Assembly (NCBI GenBank): GCA_902560275.1
Contig: CACELJ010000001.1
Span: forward strand, 883 to 64,882
Origin: an uncultured SAR86 cluster bacterium
GTDB lineage: Bacteria; Pseudomonadota; Gammaproteobacteria; Magnimaribacterales; AG-339-G14
DNA length: 64,000 nucleotides
Direction of reading: 5' to 3'
A program made the translations under genes and the position numbers. Positions 4,328 through 37,703 of the stretch are shown here, piece by piece. Under the pieces are notes generated by a model that did not search any database, was not told where the DNA came from, and saw only the letters and a program-made list of their open reading frames with translations. Within the stretch, counting starts at the first letter, position 1; each line of letters begins with the position of its first letter.

Positions 4328-4328
4328 A

Positions 4329-7576: not shown

Positions 7577-7616
7577 TGATAAACGAAATTTCATCTAGAA
7601 TCGCATTCTTTTAATT

Positions 7617-7826: not shown

Positions 7827-7833
7827 TTAAGTT

Positions 7834-8568: not shown

Positions 8569-8644
8569 GTTATGCAAAAAAAAATTAAAAAACTTATCTT
8601 CTAGGTATATAATTCGACAACTTTTTAACCTTAAAGAGGTATTT

Positions 8645-8878: not shown

Positions 8879-8896
8879 TTCCATTCACATACACTC

Positions 8897-21485: not shown

Positions 21486-21499
21486 TCTTTAAATAAAGA

Positions 21500-21536
21500 A
21501 AAAGCCTCTTTAAATTATGGAAAGAGGCTTTTTTTA
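21500..21536 (+). terminator. rho-independent terminator after the first TonB-dependent receptor
   Basis: AAGCCTCTTT (21502-21511) pairs with AAAGAGGCTT (21521-21530), followed by a T run. Confidence 0.8.
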
Positions 21537-21680
21537 TATCTAAATATTTGATCAAAAATGCAATAAAAACGTTTAATTTTGTCTTAATTTGCTATAGATT
21601 AACGTTAATTAGTCTAAGTTGGGAGACTTAGAAACAATTACAAGGAAGTTTCAAACTCAAAACAAAAAAAGGGGAATGTT

Positions 21681-24600
21681 ATGAGTATAAAAAAAATATC
21701 TGTGCCATTTTTATTTCTGGCCTTAATTTTCACAGGATTTTCGATTTCACAAGACAATGCTCTTGAAGAAGTTACCGTTACATCGCAAAGACAAGAACAA
21801 AGTCTTCAAGATGTACCTTTAGCTGTCACAGCCTTTGATGCTGATGATTTGCTTGAACAGCAAATTGAAGAAGCTTCAGATCTGCAACTTGTTGTACCAG
21901 GTCTAACGTTTGCGCCCACTGCTTTTTCTGGGGGTGGTGGATTCGATATTCGTGGTATCACTAACTTAGCAGTTTCAGCTTCTGCAGATGCTGGAGTTGC
22001 AATTCACATGAATGACTTAGCCATGGGTTCTACGACTCTTCAAGATGGTACTTTCTTTGATATGGAGAGAATAGAGGTCATCAGAGGGCCAGCAGGAACA
22101 TTGTTTGGAAGAAATTCAGTCGGTGGTGCTATTAATATGATAACTGCCAAAGGAGACACGTCTGGTTTTTATGGAAATGCTAGCATTGATATTGCTGACT
22201 ATAACGGACTCAAAACTACCTCGACTTTCAATATTCCTTTGGATGATACAGTGGCTTTGAGGCTTGCAACATCATCTTTGAAAAGGGACGGTTACATGGA
22301 AAATATTTATTCCGTTCAAAAAGATCAGGATATTGATGGAAGAAATCAATTTGCTTACCGAGCTACTTTAACTTTTGAGCCAACCGATAATACAACAATA
22401 CATGTCATTCACAGCGCAGAAATTGAAGATTCAACAAGAACCTTAGGTGGTAACGTTTATTGTAAAAGAGACACATCTTTTGTGACAGGTTGTACACGAA
22501 CTTCTGAGAGAGCGTTTGAATTAACACACCCTATGGGTACCTATGTTGAAAACTTAATGGTTGCTATGGGAGTTTTAGATTTTACAACGACGACTGATAT
22601 GTCTGGTGCACCTCAAGGATTCAGACAAGTCAATACGCGAGGTAGCTCATTATATCAAGTTGATCAGTACACAACTCAGCTTCTTATTGAACATAGCGTG
22701 GATGATATTGATATATCAATTGGAGCTCACTCAAAAGATAGAAAATTTTTGAGAATGTCCTCTTATTCTTCTCCTGAAATGCAAACTTTAAGATTTAAAA
22801 ATACTGCTGCGACTCCAGGTGGTTTGATCAATATGTCGGGGTACGGTCCAGGATGTGATTTGGATGCAGGAACTCTGGGTGCTTACGGTGGCTGTGTCAT
22901 GGATACAATAAATTACCCAACCGGTGGAGATAGACCGGAAGCAGACGTTGATACAAAAGTGCTTGAATTGAAAGTGAGTTCTTCGTTTGATGGAAATGTC
23001 AACTTCCTAGCTGGGTACACTTATTACGATAACGCTTCTATTACTCTATACGATGTATATGCGAGTGGATTGGATGTTTTAGCACAAGCACCTCCAGCTT
23101 TATTGGCAGGTCCTGCTGCTGCTCTAGGCGCACAACTTTATCCAAGTTTATACAGAACAAACGATAAAGGTACTATTGAATCGCAAGCTGTGTTTGGAGA
23201 ACTTTATTATGAACCTAGAGAAGACTTAAAACTTACCTTTGGTCTTAGATACAATGAAGATGAAAAAACAAGTTTAAGTAGAATTGCATTTGTTAACGTT
23301 TTAGGTTTCTCTAAAGGCCGAGCTACTGATTTAGGAGTAAATCTTCTAACAGAAGGAGCCATTCCAACTGCTGCTGCTTTCGAAGCCTTTGCTTGTGGAA
23401 ACTTAGAACAAGGTTTTTGTCCTCTTTTAGGAAGTGTTCCTGATTATGGAGAAGCTTATATCGCAACTACAGGCCTAGATCCTTATATGGAATTTAGTGC
23501 CATGACCGGTAGATTTGTCGTTGATTATTTTGTCGACGAAAACTCAATGATTTATGTAAATTTATCTAAAGGTTTCAAAGGTGGAGGTTTTAACCCTGCT
23601 CTTGATCCCTTAATTTTCCCTAACACACCTCAAATATTCCCAGCCTCTGATCTTATATCGCTTGAATTTGGGTTTAAAACAGAGTTCCCAGAACAAGGCG
23701 TTCGTCTGAACGGAGCTGTCTATGCATATGATGCTGAAAATTATCACATCACAAAAATTATGAATAAAACCTCAATTAATGAAGGTATTGATGTTGATAT
23801 TATGGGTCTAGAATTAGAGTTGTTATACGCTCCTCCTTCAGTCCCAGGCCTTGCTCTGAATGCTTCTTTAGCAATGACCGAGTCAACAATTGCTGATGGT
23901 GTTTCGGCGCTTGATCCAGTACAACCGGATGGAGCATTTTCAGGTCATCCAGACAGCAAAAACTGGCATTTAATGAAAGATGAACTTTCAACCATGTATA
24001 TTATGAGAAAAGATGCATTGCAAGCTGTTTATGGAGCTTGGTTGCAAGAAACTCTTACAGGTGGGGCAGCTCAAACTGGATTGGATGCTATTGAAGTTCT
24101 TACGGCTGGTGCCACAACTACAGCTGATTTAATGGCTGCATTAATACCTGCCGAGTTCCACGGAGATAGAACTTACGGTCAACCAACGCCAGTAAGTTAT
24201 TTGGTCCCTGCTTTAGGTCTAACTCCTGCTGAAGGTCATTTACCATCTCTAGGTGTACAAGCTGGGATGAGAACCATGGCTCAATTAATGGGTTTTGATC
24301 CAGCTGCTGTTGTTTCTGAGGGTCTTGAAACAGATATCTCAGGAAATTCATTAGTTCATCCTGACTCATCAGCAAACATAGGTATTTCTTATACAGCTCA
24401 AGCAGGAAGTGTGAACGTAACAACAAGACTAGATGTAGCGTATCAAGGTGCAAGGTATGTACGTATATTTAATCTCCCAGAGGATCAAATTGATTCTTGG
24501 TTAGAATCAAATTTACAAATTACTGTTACACCTGCAAATGATGACAGTTGGTATGTACAATTTTACGGTCAGAACATTACCGATGAACTTAACGTTACCG

Positions 24601-24695
24601 GCATTGGCCTTGGTGATGCTTCAGTAGGCCAAACTAGAGGAGTTACTGTTAGAGATCCTCAAGTCTTTGGAATTAGAGTTGGTTACAATTTCTAA
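21681..24695 (+). CDS. TonB-dependent receptor (1004 aa), paralogue of 26520..29573
   Basis: Signal peptide, EEVTVTSQRQEQSLQDVPLAV, FDMERIEVIRGPAGTLFGRN, and terminal ...VGYNF. Confidence 0.9.
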   Translation: MSIKKISVPFLFLALIFTGFSISQDNALEEVTVTSQRQEQSLQDVPLAVTAFDADDLLEQQIEEASDLQLVVPGLTFAPTAFSGGGGFDIRGITNLAVSASADAGVAIHMNDLAMGSTTLQDGTFFDMERIEVIRGPAGTLFGRNSVGGAINMITAKGDTSGFYGNASIDIADYNGLKTTSTFNIPLDDTVALRLATSSLKRDGYMENIYSVQKDQDIDGRNQFAYRATLTFEPTDNTTIHVIHSAEIEDSTRTLGGNVYCKRDTSFVTGCTRTSERAFELTHPMGTYVENLMVAMGVLDFTTTTDMSGAPQGFRQVNTRGSSLYQVDQYTTQLLIEHSVDDIDISIGAHSKDRKFLRMSSYSSPEMQTLRFKNTAATPGGLINMSGYGPGCDLDAGTLGAYGGCVMDTINYPTGGDRPEADVDTKVLELKVSSSFDGNVNFLAGYTYYDNASITLYDVYASGLDVLAQAPPALLAGPAAALGAQLYPSLYRTNDKGTIESQAVFGELYYEPREDLKLTFGLRYNEDEKTSLSRIAFVNVLGFSKGRATDLGVNLLTEGAIPTAAAFEAFACGNLEQGFCPLLGSVPDYGEAYIATTGLDPYMEFSAMTGRFVVDYFVDENSMIYVNLSKGFKGGGFNPALDPLIFPNTPQIFPASDLISLEFGFKTEFPEQGVRLNGAVYAYDAENYHITKIMNKTSINEGIDVDIMGLELELLYAPPSVPGLALNASLAMTESTIADGVSALDPVQPDGAFSGHPDSKNWHLMKDELSTMYIMRKDALQAVYGAWLQETLTGGAAQTGLDAIEVLTAGATTTADLMAALIPAEFHGDRTYGQPTPVSYLVPALGLTPAEGHLPSLGVQAGMRTMAQLMGFDPAAVVSEGLETDISGNSLVHPDSSANIGISYTAQAGSVNVTTRLDVAYQGARYVRIFNLPEDQIDSWLESNLQITVTPANDDSWYVQFYGQNITDELNVTGIGLGDASVGQTRGVTVRDPQVFGIRVGYNF

Positions 24696-26403
24696 TTTTA
24701 GAAAATATCTGCAAAAAACCCTGATTTTTATCGGGGTTTTTTGTATCTTATTTTCTTGTTCTTACGGACAAGACTCATCAATCATCACTATTCAGCAAGG
24801 TAAATTAAAAGGCTTGGAGCATGATGATGGCACTATAAAATATTTTGGTATCCCTTATGCGAAAGCTCCAGTTGGCAATCTTCGTTGGAAGGAACCTTTG
24901 CCTCATGAAGGATGGGAGGGAACTTTTTTTGCAGAATCTCATGGTAAAGCATGCATGCAGCCACTTGAATTATTGACTCCTGATGGAAAACTGACTGGCA
25001 ATAATGGTTTTTACGATCTTATTATAGAAAAGTCAGGCTTAGATATTCCATCTGATGAATCTCAAAATAATGCAGGATTTAATCGTTTTACATACGATGA
25101 TATGTCCGAGGACTGTTTATTTCTAAACATTGTTGTTCCTAAAGGCGGCTCTGCTAACAAACCGGTAATGTTTTGGATCCATGGCGGAGCTTCAAGGTGG
25201 GGGTCTGGGCATGAAAGTAATTACACAAGTCAATATATTCCCACAGAGGGGGACGTCATCGTGGTGAGTATAAATTATCGACTGGGGGTTTTTGCCTGGT
25301 TGGCTCATCCAGAATTATCAAGAGAGTCAGAAAAAAACGTTTCTGGAAATTATGGAACTTTAGATCAAATAGCAGCTCTAAAGTGGGTTAAAGATAATAT
25401 TGCAAATTTTGGTGGAGACCCAAACAACATAACCATTTTTGGTGAATCGGCTGGGGGACAAGCTGTGACGTCTTTGATGATAAGTCCATTATCGAAAGGA
25501 TTGTTTCACAAAGCCATTGCTCAAAGTGGCACCGGATTACCGAATGTTTTAACTGATATCAGAGAAGATAAAGGGATATTAGTTTCCGCCGAGTCAAAAG
25601 GTATCAAGTTAGCTGAATATTTTTTAGGAGAAAATGCCAATATAAATGATTTAAGGGAATTGCCAGCCCTGGAAATTGTTTCCATTGATGATTTCCAACT
25701 CGATCAAGACTTAATTATGATGACAAATCAAATTGTTGACGGATATGTTTTCCCTGAATCTATAAAAGATGCTTTTATAAATCAAAATGTCCACGATTTA
25801 CCTTTTATGGTCGGATTCAACGGAGATGAGGGGACAAGCCTATTTCCATTGATTATTGATCCAAAAACTTTCAGTTTATTCGGCGAGTTTTGGCCTGAAA
25901 GTCTTTGGGCTTTTGTTAACCCTGATCCATCATCCTTCCAAGGTCCAAAAGGAATGAGAGATTTTGCATTAAGCTTGGATGACAATTATTACGATGCTGC
26001 AACGGATTTCTGGGGATTTTTATTTTTTGGTGCTCCCTCTTATTTTGTTGCAAAGCAACATTCATTATCTGGAAATCCGACTTATCTTTATCAATTTGAT
26101 AAGAAACCTAATATTCCTAATGATTATCTTGGCGCCACGCATGCTCTTGAACTTGGTTATCTATTTAATAAAGGCGGATTATTCGGCATAGAAGGATCTT
26201 TTGATGATTCTGATATTGAACTTGCTCAGAAAATGCGAGCGGATTGGATTAATTTTGCAAAAAATGGCTCTCCAAATATTGCCGAAAGATTTGATCATAT
26301 CAGTTCGAATGCAAGAATTTATGACTCTTTCATTGAAGATAAGAAAATAGAGCACTCTGATTTTTATAAGTCCTACTCAAATTTTTGGGAAAATCTAAAT
26401 TAG
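24667..26403 (+). CDS. carboxylesterase type B family, probable lipoprotein (start uncertain: TTG 24667 or TTG 24679)
   Basis: EDCLFLNIVVP, WIHGGA, and nucleophile elbow FGESAGG. The N-terminus LIFIGVFCILFSCSYGQ looks like a signal peptide with a lipobox Cys. Confidence 0.85.
   Translation: MELELVTISNFRKYLQKTLIFIGVFCILFSCSYGQDSSIITIQQGKLKGLEHDDGTIKYFGIPYAKAPVGNLRWKEPLPHEGWEGTFFAESHGKACMQPLELLTPDGKLTGNNGFYDLIIEKSGLDIPSDESQNNAGFNRFTYDDMSEDCLFLNIVVPKGGSANKPVMFWIHGGASRWGSGHESNYTSQYIPTEGDVIVVSINYRLGVFAWLAHPELSRESEKNVSGNYGTLDQIAALKWVKDNIANFGGDPNNITIFGESAGGQAVTSLMISPLSKGLFHKAIAQSGTGLPNVLTDIREDKGILVSAESKGIKLAEYFLGENANINDLRELPALEIVSIDDFQLDQDLIMMTNQIVDGYVFPESIKDAFINQNVHDLPFMVGFNGDEGTSLFPLIIDPKTFSLFGEFWPESLWAFVNPDPSSFQGPKGMRDFALSLDDNYYDAATDFWGFLFFGAPSYFVAKQHSLSGNPTYLYQFDKKPNIPNDYLGATHALELGYLFNKGGLFGIEGSFDDSDIELAQKMRADWINFAKNGSPNIAERFDHISSNARIYDSFIEDKKIEHSDFYKSYSNFWENLN
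24713..24742 (+). terminator. terminator-like hairpin just after the stop of the second TonB-dependent receptor
   Basis: AAAAAACCCTG (24713-24723) pairs with CGGGGTTTTTT (24732-24742). It lies inside the putative signal-peptide coding part of the next ORF. Confidence 0.6.
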
Positions 26404-26519
26404 ATTATTGACTTACTCAAAGAAATAATTTTAGAAAAATATAAATTCATTTAATTTTTCTCTTTTTTAGGATAGATTACTTTTTTAAATTTAACGATTT
26501 ATTCTAAACAAGGAGCGTT

Positions 26520-29500
26520 ATGCATAAATTTTCAATTAATTTAATACTTTTCTATTTATTTTTCTCTTCACCCTTCGCAATTGTCCAAGATTCTGATGGA
26601 TTAGAAGAAATTATTGTAACTGCGCAAAGACAAGAACAAAGTCTGCAAGACGTTCCTTTAGCAGTATCTTCATTCTCTGGAGATGATCTATTGGAGCAAC
26701 AGATCGAAGGAATTAATGACATGCAATTGTTTGTTCCTGGACTTAGGTTTGGTGGAAATATTGGTGAAGGTGGAGGAGATATTGAAATAAGGGGAATGGT
26801 GAATGGAGCAGTATCAGGTACAGCAGATTCAGCAGTTGGAGTTCATATTAATGACTTAGCAGTGGGAATAACACCTCTTGATACTGGCCAGCTTTTTGAT
26901 ATGGAAAGAGTTGAGATAATCAGAGGTCCTGCAGGAACTTTATATGGAAGAAATGCTATTGGTGGATCATTGAATATGATTACGGCAAAAGCAGATCCAA
27001 CTTCTTTTTCTGGGAAAGTTAGTGTTGATCTTGGAGATTATGGAAGATTTGGCACTACTTCAGTTATAAATATTCCTCTTGATGACAATGCAGCCTTTAG
27101 ATTTGCTTCAACAACTTTGAAGCAAGATGGCCTAGTAGATAACATTTATAGCAAAGGACTCGATTATAACTTGGATAACAGAAATCAAATGGGATACAGA
27201 GCTACCCTAAGTTTCGAACCTTCTGAAAAAACTACAATTCATATTGTTCATCAAGCTCAGATTGAAGATTCAAAAAGAACGCTTACTTCAGGAACTTGGT
27301 GTGACAGAGATCCTTCCGCAGTCTTTGGTTGCACAATGCAAGCACCTGAAAATCAAAAATTTGAGATTGCGCATCCCATGTCCACGTTAGTTGAACAACT
27401 TCTCATAGCACAAGGAGTTTTAAACTACACTCCGATAACTAGTCTGGCTGGAGCTCCTCAAGAATTATGGACGATGAACGTCAGAAACGAACCTGTATAT
27501 ACCGTTGACGAATATATTACTCAATTCATCGTAGACCATGATATAAATGACGAACTATCCTTATCTGTTGCTGCGAGCAGAAAAGATAGAAAGTTTTATA
27601 GGTTAGAGGCTTACGAATCTCCAGAGTTAGATACATTAAGATTTAACGATACTCCCGTAACTCCTGGCGGTATTGGAACTATGTCTGCAAGTATCGATTC
27701 AAATTGTTCAGTCGAAGGCTACACTGCTGGTTTTTATGGTGGATGCATTTTGGATACACTGAACTATCCTACAGGAGCATTTAACTATAGTTCTCTGGCT
27801 GATACGGATGCAGTTGAAATGAAACTAGTTTCTAGTTTTGATGGACCTCATAATTTTCTATTCGGTATGAATTATTTTAAAAATTATCAAGATACGGATA
27901 CAGATGTTGTGGCTTCTGGTCTAGATGCATTAACTGTGGCTCCACCTGCAGCAATGATAGGTACTCAAGCAGCTAGTCTTGGAGCACAACTTTACGCACC
28001 ATTTTTTAGAACAGCCAATATCGATGTAATAGAATCAACCGCCGTATTTGGTGAATATTACTTTGATGTGCGTGACGACCTAAAATTAACCGTTGGCATG
28101 AGATACACAGATGACTTTAAAGAAGCAGGTCCGAGTAATCCGTCATTTAATATATTAGGTTACGCCAAAGGTAATATCACAGATGCTGCAGCTTCAGCTT
28201 GGACTGGTGGATTAGTTCCATCTGCCGCAGCCTGGGAAGCTTTATTTTGTCCTATAGGCGCCACTTTTTGCCCAGTTCCAGAATCCGCTATTCCTGGCAA
28301 CAAAGTTCCCGCACCAGGAGAAGCTTACAGAGCAGCAGGGCTAGAAACCACTAGAGAAACTTCAGAATTTACTGGAAGGATTGTTTTAGACTACTTTATA
28401 AATCAAGATTCAATGATGTTTGTTTCCTTTTCCACTGGATTCAAAGGCGGTGGGATTAATCCTGGGTTTGATCCTACAAGTTTTGCTGGCGTTCCAACTG
28501 GATTTCCAAATTCAGAAGTAAATAATCTTGAAATAGGTTTCAAAAATGAATTCCCAGACCAAGGGGTAAGACTTAATGTTTCTGCTTACTATAGTGATAT
28601 TGAAAATTACCATATCACACAAATTAAAAATAGAACCTCAGTAAACGAGGGTATTGATGTTGAAATCATGGGTGCCGAGGCTGATTTACTTTACATGCCA
28701 CCTGAAGTCCCTGGTTTTTCCCTGAATGCTTCTCTCAGTTATACATCTTCTGAGATCAATGATGGAGAAGGTTCTATTGATATGGTTAATAGAGATTTAC
28801 AATTAACAGGAGGAGTAGGCTCAACTGATTGGCACACTGTTAAAGATCAAGTTTCAGAAACTTTTATCATCAGAAAAACTGCTTTGCAGGCCATGTGGAC
28901 TAGTTATTTACAAGAGATAGCAACCTCTGGTGCAGCAGTGACTCCTGCAGATGGCATATCTGCCTTAAATCCAACTCTTGACGGTTTAACCCTTGCAAGT
29001 TTGGTGTTTTTTAATCCCGTTGAACATCACGGTGATAGAACTTTTGGAGAACCAACTCCAGTAAGCTATTGGAACCCATTAGCTGGTCAAAACCCTGCTG
29101 ATGGTCATCTACCCTCGGTATTAAATAGAGCTTCAGGCCTTCACCAGATTCTAGCTCAACTGCATGGATTTGATCTGGTTCCTGGTTCTGATATTAGTGA
29201 AGGTTTAGTGAGTGATGTTTCAGGTAATTCTTTATTTCATCCCGAACTGCAAGCTAATCTTGGTATAGGATACTTACAAGATATTGGAAATCTAAAAATT
29301 AATTATCGTCTGGATTATTCATATCAGGGAGAAAGATATTTAAGAGTATTTAATCTTCCAAGTGACGTCCTAGAGGCTTGGGATGAGTTAGGCGCCCAAA
29401 TTACTCTATCTAGTTCAGATGATTCTTGGTTTGTTCAATTTTATGGACAAAACATAACTGACAACAATAGCTATTATTATAGAGAACTTCAAAGTACCGC

Positions 29501-29573
29501 TGTAGGAAACTATCAGAGGATAATGGCTAGAGAAAGGGCTAGATATGGAATAAGGCTTGGTTATAATTTTTAA
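26520..29573 (+). CDS. TonB-dependent receptor (1017 aa), paralogue of 21681..24695
   Basis: EEIIVTAQRQEQSLQDVPLAV, FDMERVEIIRGPAGTLYGRN, VQFYGQNITD, and terminal ...LGYNF. Confidence 0.9.
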   Translation: MHKFSINLILFYLFFSSPFAIVQDSDGLEEIIVTAQRQEQSLQDVPLAVSSFSGDDLLEQQIEGINDMQLFVPGLRFGGNIGEGGGDIEIRGMVNGAVSGTADSAVGVHINDLAVGITPLDTGQLFDMERVEIIRGPAGTLYGRNAIGGSLNMITAKADPTSFSGKVSVDLGDYGRFGTTSVINIPLDDNAAFRFASTTLKQDGLVDNIYSKGLDYNLDNRNQMGYRATLSFEPSEKTTIHIVHQAQIEDSKRTLTSGTWCDRDPSAVFGCTMQAPENQKFEIAHPMSTLVEQLLIAQGVLNYTPITSLAGAPQELWTMNVRNEPVYTVDEYITQFIVDHDINDELSLSVAASRKDRKFYRLEAYESPELDTLRFNDTPVTPGGIGTMSASIDSNCSVEGYTAGFYGGCILDTLNYPTGAFNYSSLADTDAVEMKLVSSFDGPHNFLFGMNYFKNYQDTDTDVVASGLDALTVAPPAAMIGTQAASLGAQLYAPFFRTANIDVIESTAVFGEYYFDVRDDLKLTVGMRYTDDFKEAGPSNPSFNILGYAKGNITDAAASAWTGGLVPSAAAWEALFCPIGATFCPVPESAIPGNKVPAPGEAYRAAGLETTRETSEFTGRIVLDYFINQDSMMFVSFSTGFKGGGINPGFDPTSFAGVPTGFPNSEVNNLEIGFKNEFPDQGVRLNVSAYYSDIENYHITQIKNRTSVNEGIDVEIMGAEADLLYMPPEVPGFSLNASLSYTSSEINDGEGSIDMVNRDLQLTGGVGSTDWHTVKDQVSETFIIRKTALQAMWTSYLQEIATSGAAVTPADGISALNPTLDGLTLASLVFFNPVEHHGDRTFGEPTPVSYWNPLAGQNPADGHLPSVLNRASGLHQILAQLHGFDLVPGSDISEGLVSDVSGNSLFHPELQANLGIGYLQDIGNLKINYRLDYSYQGERYLRVFNLPSDVLEAWDELGAQITLSSSDDSWFVQFYGQNITDNNSYYYRELQSTAVGNYQRIMARERARYGIRLGYNF

Positions 29574-29660: not shown

Positions 29661-30674
29661 ATGATTAAACACATCAACAATATTGCTGGAATCTTAATTC
29701 TTCTTAATATTTTTGATCAGATTTTGTCGTCTAGCAAAATTATTCCTGAAAATTTCTATTTTGATATATTTGTTATAGCTTCTTATCTTTTTTTTGGTGC
29801 TGAATTTATTGCAAGAATTATCATTGAAAGAAGATTCTCTTTCCTGTTAGTTTTTGATTTTGTGGTTCTGGCTAATTATATTTTCTTTGGATTTTATGAT
29901 TTGAGAATATTAAGAATTTTTAGGGCTTATTCAATTTACAGTAATCATAAGATGTTACTTCCAACAAATACTTTGTTGAGAACTGTGTATAACCAGCGTT
30001 TAGCATTATTAGGGTCCCAGATAATGGTATTTTCAGTCCTTTTGATTTTTTCTACTTTAATTCACTTTATAGAAAGAGATATTAACCCAGAATATTTTGG
30101 TTCTATTCTCAATTCAATGTGGTTTGGAATTGCTACTTTAACCACAGTCGGTTATGGAGATGTAACTCCATCATCTCCATTAGGCCAAGTTCTGACTTCT
30201 TTAACTATGTTTCTGGGTATAGGTATGTTTGCTTTACCTGCTGCAATCTTAGCCTCAGCCTATTATGAGGAAATTCAAAAAAGAAACTTCCTTATCACAA
30301 TGGAAACAATATCCAGTATCCCTCTATTTTCAATGTTACCCATAGGGGCTTTGAGTAAAATTAACGATAAATTAGTTGCTGAAATTTATCCGGCCAAAAG
30401 AAAAATTATAGAAAAAGGTGATGAGGCAGATTGCATGTACATTATTGAGTTTGGATCTGTTCAAGTAGAAATAGAATCTCCTGTGACTTTAGGGCAGGGT
30501 GATTATTTTGGTGAAAAAGGAATTCTTTCTAAAGAAGTTCGTAATGCATCTATAAGCTCTATAGAAGAAGTGAAATTACTTTCTCTGTCAAAAGATGATT
30601 TAGAAGAACTAATGGAAGATTATCCTCATCTTTTTGAAGAGCTAGAAAAAGTTAGTTTAGACAGAAAAGGTTAA
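29661..30674 (+). CDS. cyclic-nucleotide-gated K+ channel (6-TM, MloK1-like)
   Basis: K+ selectivity filter TTVGYGD. S4-like LRILRIFRAY. C-terminal cNMP-binding domain with GDYFGEKGIL...VRNASI (FGE and the phosphate-binding Arg). Confidence 0.85.
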   Translation: MIKHINNIAGILILLNIFDQILSSSKIIPENFYFDIFVIASYLFFGAEFIARIIIERRFSFLLVFDFVVLANYIFFGFYDLRILRIFRAYSIYSNHKMLLPTNTLLRTVYNQRLALLGSQIMVFSVLLIFSTLIHFIERDINPEYFGSILNSMWFGIATLTTVGYGDVTPSSPLGQVLTSLTMFLGIGMFALPAAILASAYYEEIQKRNFLITMETISSIPLFSMLPIGALSKINDKLVAEIYPAKRKIIEKGDEADCMYIIEFGSVQVEIESPVTLGQGDYFGEKGILSKEVRNASISSIEEVKLLSLSKDDLEELMEDYPHLFEELEKVSLDRKG

Positions 30675-31423
30675 TTAAAAGAATAAGAAAACTTTGTACT
30701 AAGACCTTGATCATCTTCAACGGCGTTAGTAATAGGATCTGAATCGTATGCTATATCGTATTGAAGGCTGATACTAAATTTTTCATTTACCAGAAAGTTA
30801 AATGCCATAAGAAAACTTGCTTTATAGTCACTGAAATCACTGACTCCCGGTTGATAATAAATCGTAGTGTTAAAGTTTACATTTTCAGCAACTTCAAAAT
30901 TATCATGAAAATAAGCAGAAAGCCTTGTTGTATTTGTTACAAAGTCGTCTAAATCAGTTTCTTCTTCATATATCACTCCAGCTCCAAATCTCATTTGATC
31001 ATCTATAATCATTCTAAGACCAGTCCCAAATAAATTTCTTTCTCTAAAAAGCCTAAATGGATTTTTCGCTGACTGAATAAAGAATTCTGTATTGTACTGA
31101 TTGTAAGTTTCGAAAACTGATCTTATATGAATGAGTTGAGAAATATCCGTGACGTTTTGATTTATTTTCCTTTCAGATTTTCTCAGAATCATGAAGTTTT
31201 CAACGTCATCAAGGTTATAGTCAAACCTTAAATCAAAAGAATAGAAATCTCTGTCTCTGTTACCTCTGGAAGCATTTAAAGAAAATCCAAGGCCAGCAAA
31301 AAATCCTTCCTTACCCTCATTTCTTAACTCTTCAATATTCACTATAGTCTGAGAAATAGCAAATGAGGGCAAGAGTAATGAAATAAAGAAGAATTTATTT
31401 AGTTGTTGCAACATACGCTCCAT
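30671..31423 (-). CDS. outer-membrane beta-barrel protein, DUF481/YdiY-like
   Basis: Signal peptide followed by alternating-hydrophobic strands. It resembles YdiY in LNASRGNRD and the C-terminal ISLQYDIAYDSDP...FSYSFN. Its start overlaps the upstream cyclase stop. Confidence 0.55.
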   Translation of the reverse strand: MERMLQQLNKFFFISLLLPSFAISQTIVNIEELRNEGKEGFFAGLGFSLNASRGNRDRDFYSFDLRFDYNLDDVENFMILRKSERKINQNVTDISQLIHIRSVFETYNQYNTEFFIQSAKNPFRLFRERNLFGTGLRMIIDDQMRFGAGVIYEEETDLDDFVTNTTRLSAYFHDNFEVAENVNFNTTIYYQPGVSDFSDYKASFLMAFNFLVNEKFSISLQYDIAYDSDPITNAVEDDQGLSTKFSYSFN

Positions 31424-33578
31424 TCCAATTCGGATCAGTTAAATTAAGTTTCATATCCTTAATCCTGTCTTTAAAAATAGCGTAGTATAAATCAAACTCC
31501 ACAACTTGTTCTTCCCATTTTTTAATAAAGTTTAATGCTAGATCCCATCGTTGGTTTCTATAATTCTCTAGAAATTTATTATGATCATTTTGAAATTCAA
31601 TTAATTCTTCATCATCTAATGAGAATTTATCAAAAGAAGTATAAATTTTAACTGGCTCAGTTTTCCCTTTAACTTGAATAAAGTCTAGTTCAAAAAGATT
31701 AGATTTTGACTTGAGGGTATTCACAGTTTCTTGTCCAAGAATTCTTTGAAAACCATAAGTTCCTGATTGACCTTCTAATCTTGACGCCAAATTAACTGGA
31801 TCTCCTAAGACGGTATAATCAAATCTTTTTTCTGATCCCATATTCCCAACAATACATTCACCAGTATTAATACCAATTCCGATTTTAAGTTCCATTCCTT
31901 TTTCTTTTTGGAATTCAATATTAAAGTTTTCTAACGCCTTTTCCATATCAAAAGATGCTTTTAGAGCTAAATCCGTATGATTTTCTTGATCTGTAGGTGC
32001 ATTCCAGAATGCCATGATGCAATCACCCATATATTTATCAATTGTTCCTTCATTATCCAAAATTTCATTAGACAAAACTGTAAGAAGTTTATTTATCAGT
32101 TCAGTTAATTCTTCTGGATTAGATTTGTAACTTTCTGATATAGCTGTGAACCCTCGTATGTCAGAAAAAAGAAAAGTCATAGTTTTCTTCTCTCCTCCCA
32201 ATTTAAGTGATTCACTTGATTCTGCAAGTCTCGAAACCATTTCTGGAGCAAGATATTGAGAAAAAGCTGTTCTAACTTTACTACGTTCCAACTCAGTAAA
32301 AAGAAAATTAAAAAATGTGATTATCAAGTAACTCAATAAACATATTATTAATGGAGAAATTGGATCTATTAAAAAATCTAATTGATTGAAACCATAGAAA
32401 GAACCATAGAGACTACTTAAATTTGCCACTAAGAATGTAATTAATCCCCCGATAGGTCCAAAATATTGAATGACCAAGCAAATCAAGATGGAAAAAAGTA
32501 AACCAAATAAAAATTCTGCTCCTTCCATCCAATCTGGTCTTACTAAAAAATCTCCATTTATAATTTGTTGAATGCCTTGAGCTATGATTGTTACGCCAGG
32601 TATATCTCGCTCTAAAGAGGTATTTCTTATGTCGAGCAGTCCAGACGCGCTAGTTCCTATAAGAACAATTTTTCCAGCAAAGAAATCTTTATCAAAAGAA
32701 TTATTTATGACTTTAGCCGCAGGAATGATATTCAAGTTTTCCTTATAAGTAGAATGCAACCAAAGGTAACCGTTTGAATTAGTGGGAATAATTACGTTTC
32801 CTAATTTTATGTTATTAATCCCAGTGCTCTCACCAAACGCTAACTCTCCTGATGCATTTGATGACTTGATTTGATAAGTACTTGCTCCGATAGCAACCCT
32901 AAGGGTCTCTAGCATCAACGAAGGTACTATCTGTCCATTCACTACTTCAAATGTGGGGAGGCTTCTAACAATACTTGAATCACCCCCAATACTCATAGAC
33001 CCTATGCCCGCCGCAGAATCAACTAGAGACGGTAAGTTATTTTGCATTCCTATGTAATTAGGAAGAAATTCATTTGGTGAATCACCCTGAATTATTAGAC
33101 CGTATTTAGGTTTTACTTCTAAGGTTTTTAATTTATTATTTGGTGCACTTCCTAAGACAACAGTAGAGTGTGACTCCATAGATTCAGCAAATATTTTGTC
33201 GTTTGGCTTTATCTTTTTTAACTCTTTAATTAGTTCTGTATTTGTTGAATATTGTTCAGTTAGAACATCACTTCCAGTTCTATCTCTTTCTGCAAAGACG
33301 ATATCAAATGATGTAGTTAAAGCTCGCTCTGTGTTACTCACTAATTGAGAAAGAAGATCTCTTGACCAAGGCCATTGACCTAAACTATTGAGAGACTCAT
33401 CATCAATATCAATTATTACTACTGGATCGTCCTCTAAAGGTTCTCTTGGACTTATTTGTTGTAGAGTATCAAAAGCAAATAATCTTAAATCATTAAAAAT
33501 ATTTAATGGATTTGCTAATGGAATTAGACCAATTAAAATGGCTAAAGGCAGAAGTAATTTTTTTTGAATGTTCTTCAT
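31395..33578 (-). CDS. CHASE2-domain sensor adenylate cyclase (class III)
   Basis: N-terminal TM helix, a ~330-aa periplasmic region and a TM cluster give the CHASE2 architecture. Cyclase core motifs: TFLFSDIRGFT, IDKYMGDCIMAFWNAP, IGINTGECIVGNMG, DYTVLGDPVNLASRLE. Confidence 0.85.
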   Translation of the reverse strand: MKNIQKKLLLPLAILIGLIPLANPLNIFNDLRLFAFDTLQQISPREPLEDDPVVIIDIDDESLNSLGQWPWSRDLLSQLVSNTERALTTSFDIVFAERDRTGSDVLTEQYSTNTELIKELKKIKPNDKIFAESMESHSTVVLGSAPNNKLKTLEVKPKYGLIIQGDSPNEFLPNYIGMQNNLPSLVDSAAGIGSMSIGGDSSIVRSLPTFEVVNGQIVPSLMLETLRVAIGASTYQIKSSNASGELAFGESTGINNIKLGNVIIPTNSNGYLWLHSTYKENLNIIPAAKVINNSFDKDFFAGKIVLIGTSASGLLDIRNTSLERDIPGVTIIAQGIQQIINGDFLVRPDWMEGAEFLFGLLFSILICLVIQYFGPIGGLITFLVANLSSLYGSFYGFNQLDFLIDPISPLIICLLSYLIITFFNFLFTELERSKVRTAFSQYLAPEMVSRLAESSESLKLGGEKKTMTFLFSDIRGFTAISESYKSNPEELTELINKLLTVLSNEILDNEGTIDKYMGDCIMAFWNAPTDQENHTDLALKASFDMEKALENFNIEFQKEKGMELKIGIGINTGECIVGNMGSEKRFDYTVLGDPVNLASRLEGQSGTYGFQRILGQETVNTLKSKSNLFELDFIQVKGKTEPVKIYTSFDKFSLDDEELIEFQNDHNKFLENYRNQRWDLALNFIKKWEEQVVEFDLYYAIFKDRIKDMKLNLTDPNWNGAYVATTK

Positions 33579-33615: not shown

Positions 33616-34938
33616 ATGTTTGTCAGATATATTTTATTACTATTTATCTTCAGTTTAAGTTTCTCTGCTTTAGCGCAAAACGTACCTCCGACTATATCGG
33701 ATCCTGAACAATTAGAAACCATTAGAAAAGAAAGGCAAGCTATTTTTGATGAATTAATCGAGGATCCAACTAATCAGGGAAATTTATTCAAATACGCCAA
33801 TCTATCAATTATTTTAGGAGATTTAGAGGCAGCGATTGGGGTTTTTGAACAAATGCTTATTTACGATCCTACTTTGGCAAGAATTAGGCTAGAACTTGGA
33901 GTGCTGTACTTTAGACTAGAGGCATATGCTCCAGCAAAATTATATCTAGATAGCGTAATAGATTACGATCCTCCTGAAGAAGTGATCACAAAAGTTGAAT
34001 CTTTCTTAGCTGCCATTGAAGAGCAAGAAAAGCCTGTAACGGTTAATCAATTAATGACTTTTGGGTTTGCTAGTTCTTCTAATGCAAATGCTGGTATAGA
34101 TGCAGACATCATTGAGATAGCAGGTTTTCCTCTTGAGGTATCTCCAGATTCAAAACCACAGTCGGATTCAAAATTTTCTGTCAATTACAATTTGTCTTTA
34201 ACTCAAAATTTGAATAATCCCCGCGGTGACGCAATCAATTATTTTCTTGCAGTTGCTACCACTTATCAATCTAGGTTTACGCAATTTGATCAAAGAAGTT
34301 TCGTTTTTGGTTTAAATAGTCGTTTAGATGTAGAAGAGGGCAGATTTGGAATTTTGAAGAATCCATCCGTCACTCCAAGCTTCACAAGAATTCAAGTTTA
34401 TCTATCCGGAGAGCCTTTGCTCGAATCAAATGCTTTCAGCGTGAGTCATTCTGGATCCTTAACAAATGGTTCTGTTTTTGAATACGGTTTTAACGTAGAT
34501 AAAAGGAATTTTATAGGGTTAGATGCAAAAAGCGGTTACAGATACGGAACTTTTGTAAATAACACTTTTAATTTACCAAATAATAGCTCTAGTTGGACTA
34601 TGAATATTTTCTCTGATAAATATGAAGCCAACCAAAAATTTGAATCGTTTAGACAATGGGGTTTTGGTTTTAATTACAGAATGCCTCTTCCGGATGCATG
34701 GATTATGGCTGCTAATTATGATTTCTCTACTAAAAATTACCTTGCACCTAACGGACCACTTGGAACAAGAAAAGATATTAACGAATCATCAGATTTAACC
34801 TTTTCAAGACTTTATATAAATTGTTTATCTATGAATATTTTTATTAAACCTTTTGATAATAGAAGCAGCATTGATATTTTCTCAAGAAGTAACACCGATG
34901 TAGGTGTCAATCTTTCTTATCTTTGCTTAAATAACTAA
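33616..34938 (+). CDS. TPR-containing outer-membrane beta-barrel protein (DUF560/Slam-like?)
   Basis: Signal peptide, TPR-like helices (GDLEAAIGVFEQMLIYDP, LELGVLYFRLEAYAPAKLYL), then ~300 aa of beta-strand-like sequence rich in N/S/G/Y. Confidence 0.45.
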   Translation: MFVRYILLLFIFSLSFSALAQNVPPTISDPEQLETIRKERQAIFDELIEDPTNQGNLFKYANLSIILGDLEAAIGVFEQMLIYDPTLARIRLELGVLYFRLEAYAPAKLYLDSVIDYDPPEEVITKVESFLAAIEEQEKPVTVNQLMTFGFASSSNANAGIDADIIEIAGFPLEVSPDSKPQSDSKFSVNYNLSLTQNLNNPRGDAINYFLAVATTYQSRFTQFDQRSFVFGLNSRLDVEEGRFGILKNPSVTPSFTRIQVYLSGEPLLESNAFSVSHSGSLTNGSVFEYGFNVDKRNFIGLDAKSGYRYGTFVNNTFNLPNNSSSWTMNIFSDKYEANQKFESFRQWGFGFNYRMPLPDAWIMAANYDFSTKNYLAPNGPLGTRKDINESSDLTFSRLYINCLSMNIFIKPFDNRSSIDIFSRSNTDVGVNLSYLCLNN

Positions 34939-34970: not shown

Positions 34971-35696
34971 ATGAATCAAATAGTCCAATTTTTTCTAAAA
35001 ATCAGAAATAGTCGCTTTTTTAATGGAATAGTAATTTTTGTAATAATTGGCTCTGCTATTTATGCCGGAGTCAGTTCCTACGACCTTTCGGAAGAATACG
35101 TTGGATTGCTAAATTTTCTTGATACCGCAATAACAGTTTTCTTCCTAGTAGAGATTATTATCAGAATAGTCGCAGAAAGATCACTGATAAAATTCTTTAA
35201 AGGCGGTTGGAATGTCTTCGATTTCATCATCGTTACGGTCAGTTTAATTCCAATCACCGGAGGAGAGACAGCATTCGTTGCAAGACTGCTTAGAATTGTC
35301 AGGGTATTAAGAATTATCACCGTAGTGCCTGCATTGAAGAAAATTGTCGATGCGTTGTTTGAAACGCTTCCAAGAGTTGGTTTTGTGGCTCTTCTAATGT
35401 TCATTTTCATATATATATGGGCTGCTATAGGAACTTTAGTTTTTGGAACAACAGATCCAGAACATTGGGGTAATATTGGTCTAGCTATGCTTACTCTTGC
35501 GCAAGTTGCTACATACGATGACTGGGCTGCAGTTATGAAAGATATAATTGAAGTTTTTCCTTGGGTATGGATTTACTTTATTAGTTTCATTCTTCTTAAT
35601 GCCGTAATCATGTTGAATATGGTCATTGGTATCATTGTTGATGTAATGTCTAAGAAATCTAGCAGCGGCCAATTAAGTGCAGATGAGAATCAATAA
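34971..35696 (+). CDS. voltage-gated cation channel, BacNaV (NaChBac/NavAb) family, with a T-Y-D-D-W pore filter
   Basis: 241 aa with 6 TM segments. S4 is ARLLRIVRVLRIITVVPALKKIV, with four Arg at every third position. The pore is LTLAQVATYDDWAAVM. S6 is ILLNAVIMLNMVIGIIVDVM. Confidence 0.8.
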   Translation: MNQIVQFFLKIRNSRFFNGIVIFVIIGSAIYAGVSSYDLSEEYVGLLNFLDTAITVFFLVEIIIRIVAERSLIKFFKGGWNVFDFIIVTVSLIPITGGETAFVARLLRIVRVLRIITVVPALKKIVDALFETLPRVGFVALLMFIFIYIWAAIGTLVFGTTDPEHWGNIGLAMLTLAQVATYDDWAAVMKDIIEVFPWVWIYFISFILLNAVIMLNMVIGIIVDVMSKKSSSGQLSADENQ

Positions 35697-35925
35697 TTTT
35701 CTGATCCTTTTTCTATTTTTATCTTTATCTTCATGCACCTATCAAAAGGTAGTTAAGAACTCTATGTATGATTTAAATGAATTTGATGCATGTTATTTAG
35801 ATTATAAATCTGTCTTGGACTCCGACAAACAGAAGTATCTAAATATGCTGATAGAGTTAAGAAATTATAATTGTTCTCGATACTACGAACTTTTTGTGAG
35901 AGGAACAATTATTCAGGGTAATTAA
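35677..35925 (+). CDS. small putative lipoprotein
   Basis: MQMRINNFLILFLFLSLSSC carries a lipobox LSSC. Length is 82 aa. It overlaps the channel gene's 3' end by 20 nt. Confidence 0.5.
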   Translation: MQMRINNFLILFLFLSLSSCTYQKVVKNSMYDLNEFDACYLDYKSVLDSDKQKYLNMLIELRNYNCSRYYELFVRGTIIQGN

Positions 35926-37703
35926 AACCAAAATATCAGGAGCAGCGGTGTTGAAATGGCTATTATGAGTAATTCTAACGGTAGACCTAATTTCCAGTAA
36001 TCGCCAAATTTATAATTACCTGGTCCCATTACCAAAGTGTTACATTGATGTCCGATGGGAGATAAGAAGGCACAACTTGCACCTATGGCAACACACATTA
36101 AAAATGGCTCAGAAGGATGACCTAACTGATTTGCAATTGTGACTGATATAGGTCCCATAATAACTGCAGTCGCTGCATTATTAATGACATCAGATAGACA
36201 CATTGTGGCTACCATCAAAATAACAAGGGTGCCAACTAAACCAAATTGAATAGATTGAGTAGCTATTACGGTTGCTAATATATTTGTAAGACCACTGTCA
36301 TATAGTGCATCGCCTATAGGAATCATAGCTCCAAGCAATACAATAACAGGCCATTCAATATGACGATAAAGCATATTTGGTTTTAGTAGTTTAGACGCAA
36401 CAAATGCTAAAACGCATAGTAAAAATGCTATGACGACATTTAAAAAATTTGTGATAACCAAAAGTAAACTAAAAGAAAATAACCCTAACGAAAGTAAAAC
36501 TTTAGAATCATCCTTTATTACATCTAACTCTCTTTGCCAAAGAGGCATCAAACCAAGATCTTGCATTTTATCACTGGTATCTTTTTGTTCTTCTCTAGTA
36601 GCAATCAACAACACATCTCCAGCCTTGAAATGTTCGTTTGAAAGGCTTCCTTGAAAATTTGTACCTTTTCTCCACAATCCAAGAACAGCCATCTGTCTCC
36701 CGACCATATTTGAAAAATAGCTTATAGTTCTACCTATTAATCTTGACCCTGGAGATATCATGGTTTCAATTTCACCAAAGCTTCCCGAATCAAGATCTTT
36801 AATTTCGGTTCTGAGAGAAAGACCATACTTATCTTGTAGTCCTGATACTTCCTCTGGATTTATTTTCAAAAGTAGAATTTGAGATTCTTTTAATTCCTCA
36901 AAATTACTTAAAATTTCCCTGGCATCAGATGTTTCATTTACTGAACCAATGAGTACTGTGTCAGAACCTAGTTCCTTCCTGAATTCTTGAGTTTTTTTAC
37001 CTATAAGATCGCTATCTTCATCAATCACAAGCTCAACTAAATATTCATTAATATCAACTAAAGAAGATGAATCACTATCACCAGATCTATTTTTTACAAG
37101 AATGAAGCCAAGTAATGCGATAAAAATCACGCCTCCGATACTCACAGGTAACCCTGCATAGGCAAAATCAAAAAATTCAAACCCTTGGTCGGAGTATTGG
37201 TCCCTAAATTCGGAAATAATAATATTTGGAGGCGTTCCAATTTTTGTATTCATACCCCCAAGAATTGACGCAAAGGCAAGAGGCATCAAAAATTTAGAAG
37301 GGGACCAGCCCATTTTCTGACATATTCCTAAAGTTACAGGTAATAACATAGCCATAGCACCAATGTTATTCATAAAAGAGGATAAAATGACGGCAATACC
37401 CATCAATATGACTAAGAACTGAAATTCACTATTAGCAATTTTCTGCAAAAGATTGCCAATTTTCCCTATCAGTCCTGATGCTTCTAGGCCTTTACTAATC
37501 AATAAAACAAGCGCAACTGTAATAACTGCTGGATGTCCAAACCCTACAAATGCTTCTTTAGCTGGAACAAAACCAAGAACCACTAAAACTGCAAGACTTG
37601 TCAATGCTACTGCATCATAACGAAATCTGCCCCAGATAAACATAGCAACCATAACTAAGAGTATGGCCGAAAGGATGATTTGATTAGTATCCATAAAAGA
37701 CAA
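35922..37703 (-). CDS. SLC13/DASS-family anion permease with central TrkA-C (RCK_C) domains
   Basis: 593 aa. Two hydrophobic halves flank a ~200-aa soluble insert (LVELVIDEDSDLIGK...; GEIETMISPGSRLIGRT...), typical of YbiR/YfbS-type transporters. Confidence 0.75.
   Translation of the reverse strand: MSFMDTNQIILSAILLVMVAMFIWGRFRYDAVALTSLAVLVVLGFVPAKEAFVGFGHPAVITVALVLLISKGLEASGLIGKIGNLLQKIANSEFQFLVILMGIAVILSSFMNNIGAMAMLLPVTLGICQKMGWSPSKFLMPLAFASILGGMNTKIGTPPNIIISEFRDQYSDQGFEFFDFAYAGLPVSIGGVIFIALLGFILVKNRSGDSDSSSLVDINEYLVELVIDEDSDLIGKKTQEFRKELGSDTVLIGSVNETSDAREILSNFEELKESQILLLKINPEEVSGLQDKYGLSLRTEIKDLDSGSFGEIETMISPGSRLIGRTISYFSNMVGRQMAVLGLWRKGTNFQGSLSNEHFKAGDVLLIATREEQKDTSDKMQDLGLMPLWQRELDVIKDDSKVLLSLGLFSFSLLLVITNFLNVVIAFLLCVLAFVASKLLKPNMLYRHIEWPVIVLLGAMIPIGDALYDSGLTNILATVIATQSIQFGLVGTLVILMVATMCLSDVINNAATAVIMGPISVTIANQLGHPSEPFLMCVAIGASCAFLSPIGHQCNTLVMGPGNYKFGDYWKLGLPLELLIIAISTPLLLIFWF

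What the first reader, a model, noticed from the sequence alone, without database searches (positions are those of the whole stretch)
34971..35696. Natural BacNaV-family channel with a T-Y-D-D-W selectivity filter resembling engineered Ca2+-selective channels
Aligned by eye to NavAb (TLFQVMTLESWSMGIV) and NaChBac (TLESWAS), the pore here reads TLAQVATYDDWAAVM (filter codons at 35511-35531). The filter Glu is Asp, the following Ser is Asp, and the preceding Leu is Tyr. The engineered Ca2+-selective derivatives CavAb (TLDDWSD) and NaChBac LDDWAD carry these same E-to-D and S-to-D changes plus a further Asp after the Trp. This native channel has two of those three substitutions. It may be Ca2+-permeable or non-selective rather than Na+-selective. 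S4 retains four gating arginines. Native prokaryotic voltage-gated Ca2+ channels are very rare.
Basis: partly seen in the sequence, partly recalled or inferred. Interest (0 to 1): 0.7.

Follow-up and report, generated by a model that had tools for sequence, protein, structure and literature searches.

The report
SAR86 voltage-gated channel, double-aspartate filter
This gene encodes a voltage-gated cation channel from the abundant ocean bacterium SAR86, and its pore carries a strictly conserved double-aspartate motif that probably makes it calcium-permeable or calcium-blocked rather than sodium-selective, though nobody has measured this.

Summary
Window 34971-35696 (+) encodes a 241-aa single-domain voltage-gated channel. 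It has four S4 arginines and the filter T181-Y-D-D-W-A-A187 (codons 35511-35531). HMM alignments to NavRh, NavAb, NaChBac and CaV3 domain II all give the same register.

The motif is not a one-off. The window comes from a SAR86 gammaproteobacterium. YDDW is present in all 120 closest database homologs (59-100% identity) and in about 45 SAR86-type genomes. These form a monophyletic clade (bootstrap 100) under very strong purifying selection (dN/dS 0.01-0.03). The clade sits inside the "ancestor-like BacNaV"/NavRh supergroup, not among the canonical NavAb or NaChBac channels.

The calcium interpretation is plausible but unproven:
- In NaChBac and NavAb, Asp after the filter acid raises PCa/PNa about 100-fold or more.
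- Asp in place of Glu abolishes Na+ selectivity.
- In the related NavPp (TLEDWTD), extra aspartates give Ca2+ block instead of Ca2+ selectivity.
- The closest relatives (NavRh, H. elongata, T. turnerae) never gave currents.

No paper in the searchable library mentions this motif. I class it as a new variant of a known kind. It is worth electrophysiology, ideally by grafting the filter into a channel that expresses.

The parts
34971..35696 (+). Complete ORF, 241 aa plus TAA stop: a single-domain 6-TM voltage-gated cation channel subunit of the SAR86 TYDDW clade.
   Evidence: ORF list and sequence. Pfam PF00520 E 1e-42. NavRh 4DXW E 3.5e-62. dN/dS 0.009-0.025 against close relatives.
35013..35324 (+). 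Voltage-sensor domain S1-S4 (residues 15-118). Clade-invariant F58, E61, R65 and D84, plus D51, align with NavAb F56, E59, R63, D80 and N49.
   Evidence: AF2 helices 15-35, 41-68, 79-91 and 101-118. Residue mapping and invariance.
35283..35312 (+). S4 gating charges R105, R108, R111 and R114 (R-L-L-R-I-V-R-V-L-R), aligned with NavAb R99, R102, R105 and R108.
   Evidence: Invariant in 41 of 41 clade members. FVARLLR is the most conserved heptad.
35328..35507 (+). S4-S5 linker, S5 and pore helix P1 (residues 120-179), including Q178, which aligns with NavAb Q172.
   Evidence: AF2 secondary structure. Alignment.
35511..35531 (+). Selectivity filter T181-Y182-D183-D184-W185-A186-A187. D183 is the high-field-strength position and D184 is the position after it (the 'beacon'). 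There is no acidic residue at position 7.
   Evidence: Register from phmmer and MAFFT. T-Y-D-D-W invariant in 41 of 41; positions 6/7 are A/G and A/M/N.
35532..35654 (+). P2 helix and S6 inner helix (residues 188-228), with conserved S6 N216 and M226 aligning to NavAb N211 and M221. A211 stands where NaChBac has T220.
35655..35693 (+). Short, poorly conserved cytoplasmic tail of 13 aa. It has no neck or coiled-coil domain.
   Evidence: Column conservation 0.41 and pLDDT below 50. Clade lengths are 241-271 aa, median 245, against 286 aa with a coiled-coil-like tail in the H. elongata AnclNav.

Best explanation
The ORF encodes one subunit of a homotetrameric, depolarisation-activated cation channel. 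It belongs to a SAR86-specific clade of the BacNaV superfamily, within the 'ancestor-like'/NavRh-like supergroup.

The voltage sensor is canonical: four S4 arginines, the conserved acidic counter-charges and the Phe plug. The pore keeps the NavAb-type scaffold residues (Q178, T181, W185, N216). The filter, however, is T-Y-D-D-W-A-A. A tetramer would therefore stack two rings of four aspartates, eight carboxylates in all, above the backbone carbonyls of Y182 and T181.

Inferred mechanism: in seawater (about 10 mM Ca2+) these two carboxylate rings bind divalent cations much more tightly than a single Glu ring does. The channel would then not be a Na+-selective BacNaV. Most likely it passes Ca2+ by multi-ion knock-off, as engineered CavAb and CaChBac do, and so couples membrane depolarisation to Ca2+ entry.

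Shown: the gene, its family, the filter register, clade-wide invariance and strong purifying selection. Inferred: tetramer assembly, voltage gating and, above all, ion preference. The confidence given is for the whole statement including Ca2+ permeation. That it is a voltage-gated cation channel of this superfamily I put at about 0.95.
For: Family and fold:
- Pfam Ion_trans E 1e-42.
- NavRh is the best sequence match and the best Foldseek match.
- Voltage-sensor and pore hallmark residues map one-to-one onto NavAb and are invariant.

Clade:
- YDDW in 120 of 120 homologs and in all SAR86-type loci.
- Monophyletic with bootstrap 100.
- dN/dS 0.009-0.025.

Precedent for Ca2+:
- NaChBac LEDWAS has PCa/PNa 35 against 0.15 for wild type; LDDWAD has 133 (PMC2229573).
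- NavAb TLEDWSM shows about a 100-fold rise (PMC10120453).
- CatSper1, a subunit of a Ca2+ channel, naturally has TLDDW.

Circumstantial: in 26 of 31 more distant clade members a giant cadherin-repeat (Ca2+-binding) protein gene lies directly upstream on the same strand.
Against: - No electrophysiology exists for any member.
- NavPp, the characterised D4-carrying member of this supergroup, does not become Ca2+-selective with extra Asp. NavPp TLEDWTD has PCa/PNa 0.31 with Ca2+ block, NavPp TLEDWAD is fully blocked, and CavMr G4D falls from 218 to 7.7 (PMC7041947).
- The third Asp (position 7) of CavAb and CaChBac is never present in this clade.
- Tyr at position 2 is untested. NavAb L176 substitutions with small or hydrophilic residues create divalent block, although L176F does not (PMC10349818).
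- The AF2 monomer is only moderate (pLDDT 67) and says nothing about filter geometry in the tetramer.
- The cadherin linkage is absent from this window and its genus.
Confidence: 0.55

Rival explanations
1. A Na+-conducting (or monovalent-conducting) channel with low-affinity divalent block, like NavPp. The Asp rings bind Ca2+/Mg2+ but do not pass them efficiently, so seawater divalents tune or throttle a Na+ influx.
For: The clade lies in the same bootstrap-98 supergroup as NavPp. NavPp TLEDWTD has PCa/PNa 0.31 with Ca2+ block, and NavPp T6A (TLEDWAD, which shares D4 and A6 with this filter) is blocked even more strongly. Changes at position 2 can create divalent block in NavAb.
Against: NavPp belongs to a separate long-loop subgroup (bootstrap 88) and is only 33% identical. 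This filter has Asp rather than Glu at position 3 and lacks D7. A channel that is permanently blocked in 10 mM Ca2+ and about 50 mM Mg2+ seawater is hard to reconcile with dN/dS near 0.01, unless the block itself is the regulated feature.
Confidence: 0.25
2. A non-selective voltage-gated cation channel passing Na+, K+ and Ca2+, like NsvBa or the diatom EukCatA channels. It would dissipate or reset membrane potential rather than signal through Ca2+.
For: [quoted passage not shown] CavMr G4D and NavPp T6V (TLEDWVD) lose monovalent selectivity, with PK/PNa about 1.
Against: Those non-selective filters have a small neutral residue at position 4, not Asp. Adding Asp at position 4 raised divalent preference in every canonical scaffold tested.
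Confidence: 0.15
3. An ordinary Na+-selective BacNaV whose unusual filter residues are functionally neutral.
For: Sources annotate relatives as 'voltage-gated sodium channel'. The NavRh filter (TLSSWE) also looks odd, yet it is Na+-selective when grafted into NaChBac.
Against: Every tested E-to-D change at position 3, and every S-to-D change at position 4, altered selectivity in NaChBac, NavAb and NsvBa. The motif is invariant across a clade whose nearest relatives, TFEDWTD and TFESWAT, differ from it.
Confidence: 0.05

Closest known systems
NavRh (PDB 4DXW; marine alphaproteobacterium HIMB114)
   Same: It is the best single-domain sequence match (E 3.5e-62, about 44% identity) and the best structural match (TM 0.67-0.72). 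It is also a 6-TM subunit with four S4 arginines. It is also short (229 aa) and lacks the C-terminal coiled coil. It also comes from a streamlined marine oligotroph.
   Different: The NavRh filter is TLSSWE, with its single acid at position 6. This protein has TYDDWAA, with acids at positions 3 and 4. NavRh gave no current heterologously; its filter is Na+-selective in NaChBac (PMC4225499).
Ancestor-like BacNaVs (AnclNav): H. elongata and T. turnerae TFEDWTD channels, NavPp, CavMr (Shimomura 2020, PMC7041947)
   Same: They share a supergroup with bootstrap 98. The H. elongata AnclNav has the highest identity to the window protein among the named reference channels compared (47.7%). They also have an aromatic residue at position 2 (Phe) and Asp at position 4.
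   Different: AnclNavs keep Glu at position 3 and an acidic residue at position 7. CavMr and NavPp also have a long Cys-containing loop before S6. CavMr's Ca2+ selectivity depends on Gly at position 4, which is absent here. The H. elongata and T. turnerae channels gave no currents.
Engineered Ca2+-selective BacNaVs: CavAb (TLDDWSD) and CaChBac (LDDWAD)
   Same: They have an identical Asp-Asp pair at positions 3-4 followed by Trp. CaChBac also has Ala at position 6.
   Different: They are artificial, built on canonical NavAb and NaChBac scaffolds that are 32-38% identical to this protein. They have Leu rather than Tyr at position 2, and a third Asp at position 7 that this clade never has (12 carboxylates per tetramer against 8).
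NsvBa (B. alcalophilus, TLDSWGS) and diatom EukCatA (TLDAWAD)
   Same: [quoted passage not shown]
   Different: They have a neutral residue at position 4. They belong to different clades (the Bacillus group and eukaryotes).
CatSper1 pore (TLDDWS)
   Same: It carries a natural T-x-D-D-W motif in a one-domain subunit of a Ca2+-selective channel.
   Different: It is eukaryotic and works in an obligate heterotetramer with CatSper2-4. The similarity to this protein is limited to the shared Ion_trans fold.

Membership tests
Voltage-gated ion channel superfamily (Pfam Ion_trans PF00520) | A significant match to the family profile over S1-S6. | tested here: met
   E 1e-42, 146.5 bits against a cutoff of 25, covering residues 15-230.
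BacNaV superfamily (single-domain prokaryotic NaV/CaV-type channels) | A single 6-TM domain whose S4 carries four Arg at every third position, plus the conserved counter-charges. | tested here: met
   R105/108/111/114, F58, E61, R65 and D84 align with NavAb R99/102/105/108, F56, E59, R63 and D80, and are invariant in the clade.
BacNaV superfamily | A pore with P1 helix, T-x-[E/D]-x-W filter and P2 helix. | tested here: met
   T181-Y-D-D-W185 aligns to T175-L-E-S-W179 of NavAb. AF2 predicts helices 163-179 and 182-195 flanking the filter, with moderate confidence.
BacNaV superfamily | A C-terminal neck plus four-helix coiled coil. | tested here: not met
   The protein ends 13 residues after S6 and the tail is unconserved. 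NavRh also lacks this domain, so it is not universal.
BacNaV superfamily | Na+ selectivity and voltage-dependent gating. | not testable with these tools
   This requires electrophysiology.
Canonical BacNaV groups (NavAb-like; Bacillus NaChBac-like) | Phylogenetic placement with NavAb/NavMs or NaChBac, and a TLESW filter. | tested here: not met
   The protein falls outside both groups in the NJ tree (the NavAb-like group has bootstrap 100). The filter is not TLESW.
AnclNav group (Shimomura et al. 2020) | Phylogenetic placement with CavMr, NavPp and the H. elongata and T. turnerae channels. | tested here: met
   A bootstrap-98 supergroup holds all AnclNavs, the NavRh-like channels and the SAR86 clade. 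Branching inside it is unresolved, with bootstraps of 2-30.
AnclNav group | A TLE[D/G]W.D-type filter with an acidic residue at position 7. | tested here: not met
   Position 3 is Asp, not Glu. Position 7 is A, N or M and never acidic.
CavAb/CaChBac-type Asp-rich Ca2+ filter | Asp at positions 3 and 4. | tested here: met
   D183 and D184 are invariant.
CavAb/CaChBac-type Asp-rich Ca2+ filter | Asp at position 7. | tested here: not met
   The window has A187, and the clade has A, N or M.
CavMr-type native prokaryotic CaV | Gly at filter position 4, the determinant of its Ca2+ selectivity. | tested here: not met
   Position 4 is Asp. CavMr G4D loses selectivity (PMC7041947).

The most novel reading that the evidence does not exclude
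The SAR86 TYDDW channels are native voltage-gated Ca2+ channels that select Ca2+ with two stacked aspartate rings. That is the mechanism so far seen only in engineered CavAb and CaChBac, and it is mechanistically distinct from the Gly-dependent CavMr. Because SAR86 is among the most abundant surface-ocean bacteria, these would be among the most numerous voltage-gated Ca2+ channels on Earth. They may have been ancestrally coupled to a giant Ca2+-binding cadherin-repeat surface protein encoded immediately upstream.
Probability: 0.3. Interest if true: 0.8.

Novelty: new variant of a known kind. Interest (0 to 1): 0.6.

Why it matters
According to the 2020 report of CavMr, that channel was the first native prokaryotic voltage-gated Ca2+ channel to be identified, and it uses an unexpected Gly-based filter. 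A natural channel that uses the Asp-Asp solution would show that the engineered CavAb mechanism exists in nature. It would also give structural biologists a native template, and it would test whether 'count the aspartates' or 'scaffold context' governs Na+/Ca2+ selectivity.

The ecological side matters too. The gene is fixed under very strong constraint in a streamlined, uncultured, globally abundant bacterioplankton lineage. That implies voltage-dependent cation (possibly Ca2+) signalling is important to free-living ocean heterotrophs.

If the channel instead proves to be Na+-conducting or Ca2+-blocked, it still extends the sequence-to-selectivity map for one-domain channels.

Tried and rejected
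- Conserved operon partner: the window's neighbours (CHASE2 cyclase, TPR protein, small lipoprotein, DASS transporter) are kept only in relatives at or above 94% identity. I therefore draw no functional inference from them.
- Rfam scan of the window: no matches.
- Promoter and terminator scan around the gene: no more sites than in shuffled sequence.
- Paralog in the window that could form heteromers: none found.
- Other native DD filters: among 19 single-domain representatives only P0229 (TFDDWAK, 36% identity) has one, and it is a singleton in the 5.8-billion-protein database.
- Tang et al. 2014 (CavAb) and Zhang et al. 2012 (NavRh) could not be retrieved. Values for the intermediate CavAb mutants therefore come only from secondary citations.
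- AF2 monomer: only pLDDT 67. It confirms the fold but is not usable for filter geometry. No tetramer prediction was possible.
- Pseudogene or non-functional gene: rejected by dN/dS near 0.01.
- The representative-library search was dominated by eukaryotic four-domain channels and gave few single-domain sequences.

Full report
**Observation.** The window holds an ATG-initiated ORF at 34971..35696 (+) of 241 aa. Its pore segment reads TLAQVATYDDWAAVM. S4 reads A-R-L-L-R-I-V-R-V-L-R, so it has four arginines at three-residue spacing (R105, R108, R111, R114).

**Family and register.** Three lines of evidence place the protein.
- Pfam gives Ion_trans at E 1e-42.
- Against all PDB sequences, the best single-domain hit is NavRh (4DXW, E 3.5e-62). 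The printed alignment has no gap through the pore. It places query TYDDW on NavRh TLSSW, and on TQEDW of CaV3 domain II.
- I verified that the NavAb and NaChBac sequences I used are identical to PDB 3RVY and 6VWX.

In a MAFFT alignment the window's T181/Y182/D183/D184/W185 align to NavAb T175/L176/E177/S178/W179. The voltage-sensor hallmarks also correspond one-to-one:
- F58 to F56, E61 to E59, R65 to R63, D84 to D80.
- R105-R114 to R99-R108.
- Q178 to Q172, N216 to N211, M226 to M221.

[quoted passage not shown] An AlphaFold2 monomer built on 41 clade sequences is of moderate quality (pLDDT 67). It shows S1-S6 with P1 and P2 helices, and its best Foldseek match is NavRh, followed by NavAb, CavAb and NaChBac. 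The protein ends 13 residues after S6, so it lacks the C-terminal coiled coil of most BacNaVs, as NavRh does.

**It is a clade signature, not a singleton.** The window is from a SAR86-cluster gammaproteobacterium, with 100% protein identity to the single-cell genome AG-908-F10.
- Of the 120 best hits in a 5.8-billion-protein database (62-99% identity), 119 have TYDDW and one has PYDDW. Positions 6-7 are AA, GA, AN, AM or GM and are never acidic.
- Every SAR86-type genome locus whose match covers the filter (about 45 GTDB species representatives, down to 59% identity) has TYDDW.
- The next relatives, at or below 51% identity, are in Halomonadaceae, Marinobacterium, Methylophaga, Thiomicrorhabdus and similar groups. 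They carry TFEDWTD or TFESWAT.
- In the 41-sequence clade alignment T-Y-D-D-W, the four arginines and the counter-charges are invariant. S4, the filter and inner S6 are the most conserved segments.
- Against close relatives, dN/dS is 0.009-0.025 with dS up to about 2. The gene is functional and tightly constrained.

**Phylogenetic placement.** I added the sequences from Shimomura et al. 2020 figure 1 source data and built an NJ tree of 70 sequences, 231 columns and 100 bootstraps.
- The TYDDW clade is recovered with bootstrap 100.
- It lies inside a bootstrap-98 supergroup that contains all "ancestor-like BacNaVs" (CavMr, NavPp, H. elongata, T. turnerae and others) and the NavRh-like channels.
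- This supergroup is separate from the NavAb-like group (bootstrap 100) and the Bacillus group.
- Branching within the supergroup is unresolved, except that CavMr and NavPp form their own long-loop subgroup (bootstrap 88).
- Identities of the window protein: H. elongata AnclNav 47.7%, NavRh 44.2%, NaChBac 37.9%, CavMr 35.0%, NavPp 33.3%, NavAb 32.5%.

The Shimomura data set holds no YDDW sequence. No paper in the searchable library contains TYDDW or links SAR86 to voltage-gated channels.

**What the filter is likely to do.** The literature points two ways.

Evidence for Ca2+ permeability:
- In NaChBac, Ser-to-Asp at position 4 alone (LEDWAS) raises PCa/PNa from 0.15 to 35, and LDDWAD reaches 133 (PMC2229573).
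- In NavAb, TLEDWSM gives about a 100-fold rise (PMC10120453).
- Glu-to-Asp at position 3 abolishes Na+ selectivity in NsvBa and NaChBac (PMC4225499) and in OsEukCatA1.
- A 2023 classification holds that an Asp "beacon" gives either Ca2+ selectivity or strong Ca2+ block.
- CatSper1 naturally has TLDDW.

Evidence against simple extrapolation:
- In the AnclNav background, NavPp (TLEDWTD) has PCa/PNa 0.31 with Ca2+ block.
- NavPp T6A (TLEDWAD) is blocked further.
- CavMr G4D drops from 218 to 7.7 and loses monovalent selectivity (PMC7041947).
- Position 2 also matters. Small or hydrophilic substitutions at NavAb L176 create divalent block and Phe does not (PMC10349818). Tyr has not been tested.
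- NavRh and the H. elongata and T. turnerae channels, the closest relatives anyone has tried, never produced currents. The whole sub-branch is functionally uncharacterised.

My reading: an ordinary Na+-selective channel is unlikely (about 5%). A divalent-interacting pore is very likely. Ca2+ permeation is the single most probable outcome (about 55%). NavPp-like block (about 25%) and non-selectivity (about 15%) are live rivals.

**Context.** The immediate neighbours are:
- a CHASE2 class III nucleotidyl cyclase (31395-33578, -);
- a TPR protein (33616-34938, +);
- a small putative lipoprotein ORF overlapping the channel's stop;
- a DASS/CitMHS transporter (35922-37703, -).

This arrangement is kept only in relatives at or above 94% identity, so I draw no functional conclusion from it.

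Two things seen in passing deserve follow-up. First, a cyclic-nucleotide-binding K+ channel (filter TTVGYGD) lies 4.3 kb upstream, next to the cyclase. Second, in 26 of 31 more distant TYDDW loci a giant cadherin-repeat ORF of 1,760 aa or more lies directly upstream on the same strand. None of the TFEDWTD or TFESWAT loci has it, and neither does this window.

**Verdict.** This is a new, unreported, abundant variant of a known channel kind, and its ion selectivity is an open question that can be tested directly.

Noticed in passing
window 29661-30674 (+) and 31395-33578 (-): A 337-aa cyclic-nucleotide-binding K+ channel (Ion_trans_2 plus cNMP_binding, filter TTVGYGD) lies beside a CHASE2 class III adenylate/guanylate cyclase. 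Both are within 6 kb of the DD-filter voltage-gated channel, which could make a small 'excitability' gene cluster. The arrangement is conserved only in L001-L011 (91% identity or more).
   Followed up: partly
L015, L017-L024, L026, L027, L029-L033, L036, L038-L041, L044, L046, L060, L066, L077 (upstream of the channel, about 1-5950 in locus coordinates): In 26 of 31 more distant TYDDW-clade loci, a giant ORF of 1,760-1,980 aa or more lies immediately upstream of the channel on the same strand. Many are cut by the locus edge. The three that I scanned (L015, L021, L030) carry Pfam Cadherin repeats (E down to 8e-78); in the other loci the ORF was recognised by tblastn similarity to these three. 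It is absent from all TFEDWTD/TFESWAT loci and from this window and its genus. Cadherin repeats bind Ca2+.
   Followed up: partly
window 35677-35925 (+): An 82-aa ORF (probable ATG at 35683) overlaps the channel's 3' end by about 14-20 nt. Its N-terminus looks like a lipoprotein signal (…FLSLSSC). It is conserved at 77-95% identity only in close relatives and has no Pfam match.
   Followed up: partly
window 35601-35603 (A211): The clade has Ala (40 of 41 sequences) where NaChBac has T220 and NavAb has T206. The T220A-type mutation is used experimentally to slow inactivation in NaChBac and NavPp, so these channels may inactivate slowly in their native form.
   Followed up: no
window 18375-29573 (+): Three TonB-dependent receptors of about 1,000 aa each, with a carboxylesterase between them. 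TonB-dependent receptors are, from my own recollection, typical of SAR86 genomes.
   Followed up: no
L030, L032, L039, L044, L060: Contigs labelled Woeseiaceae, Flammeovirgaceae or Nitrosopelagicus carry TYDDW channels, with the same upstream cadherin-like gene. L030, L032, L039 and L060 form the deepest branch of the clade in the tree; L044 is a partial sequence and was not placed. The labels probably reflect mis-binning or loose taxonomy rather than true hosts outside SAR86-like Gammaproteobacteria.
   Followed up: no
L081/L082 (contigs encoding P0108), 629-9894: In another SAR86 lineage the channel is flanked by a divergently transcribed MscS-type mechanosensitive channel and the DASS transporter. 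A Na_Ca_ex (CaCA-family) exchanger lies about 8.4 kb upstream.
   Followed up: no
P0229 (representative library): The only other native Asp-Asp filter seen is TFDDWAK, in a 250-aa protein that is 36% identical to the query. It is a singleton from one 3.7-kb assembly contig and its host is unknown.
   Followed up: partly
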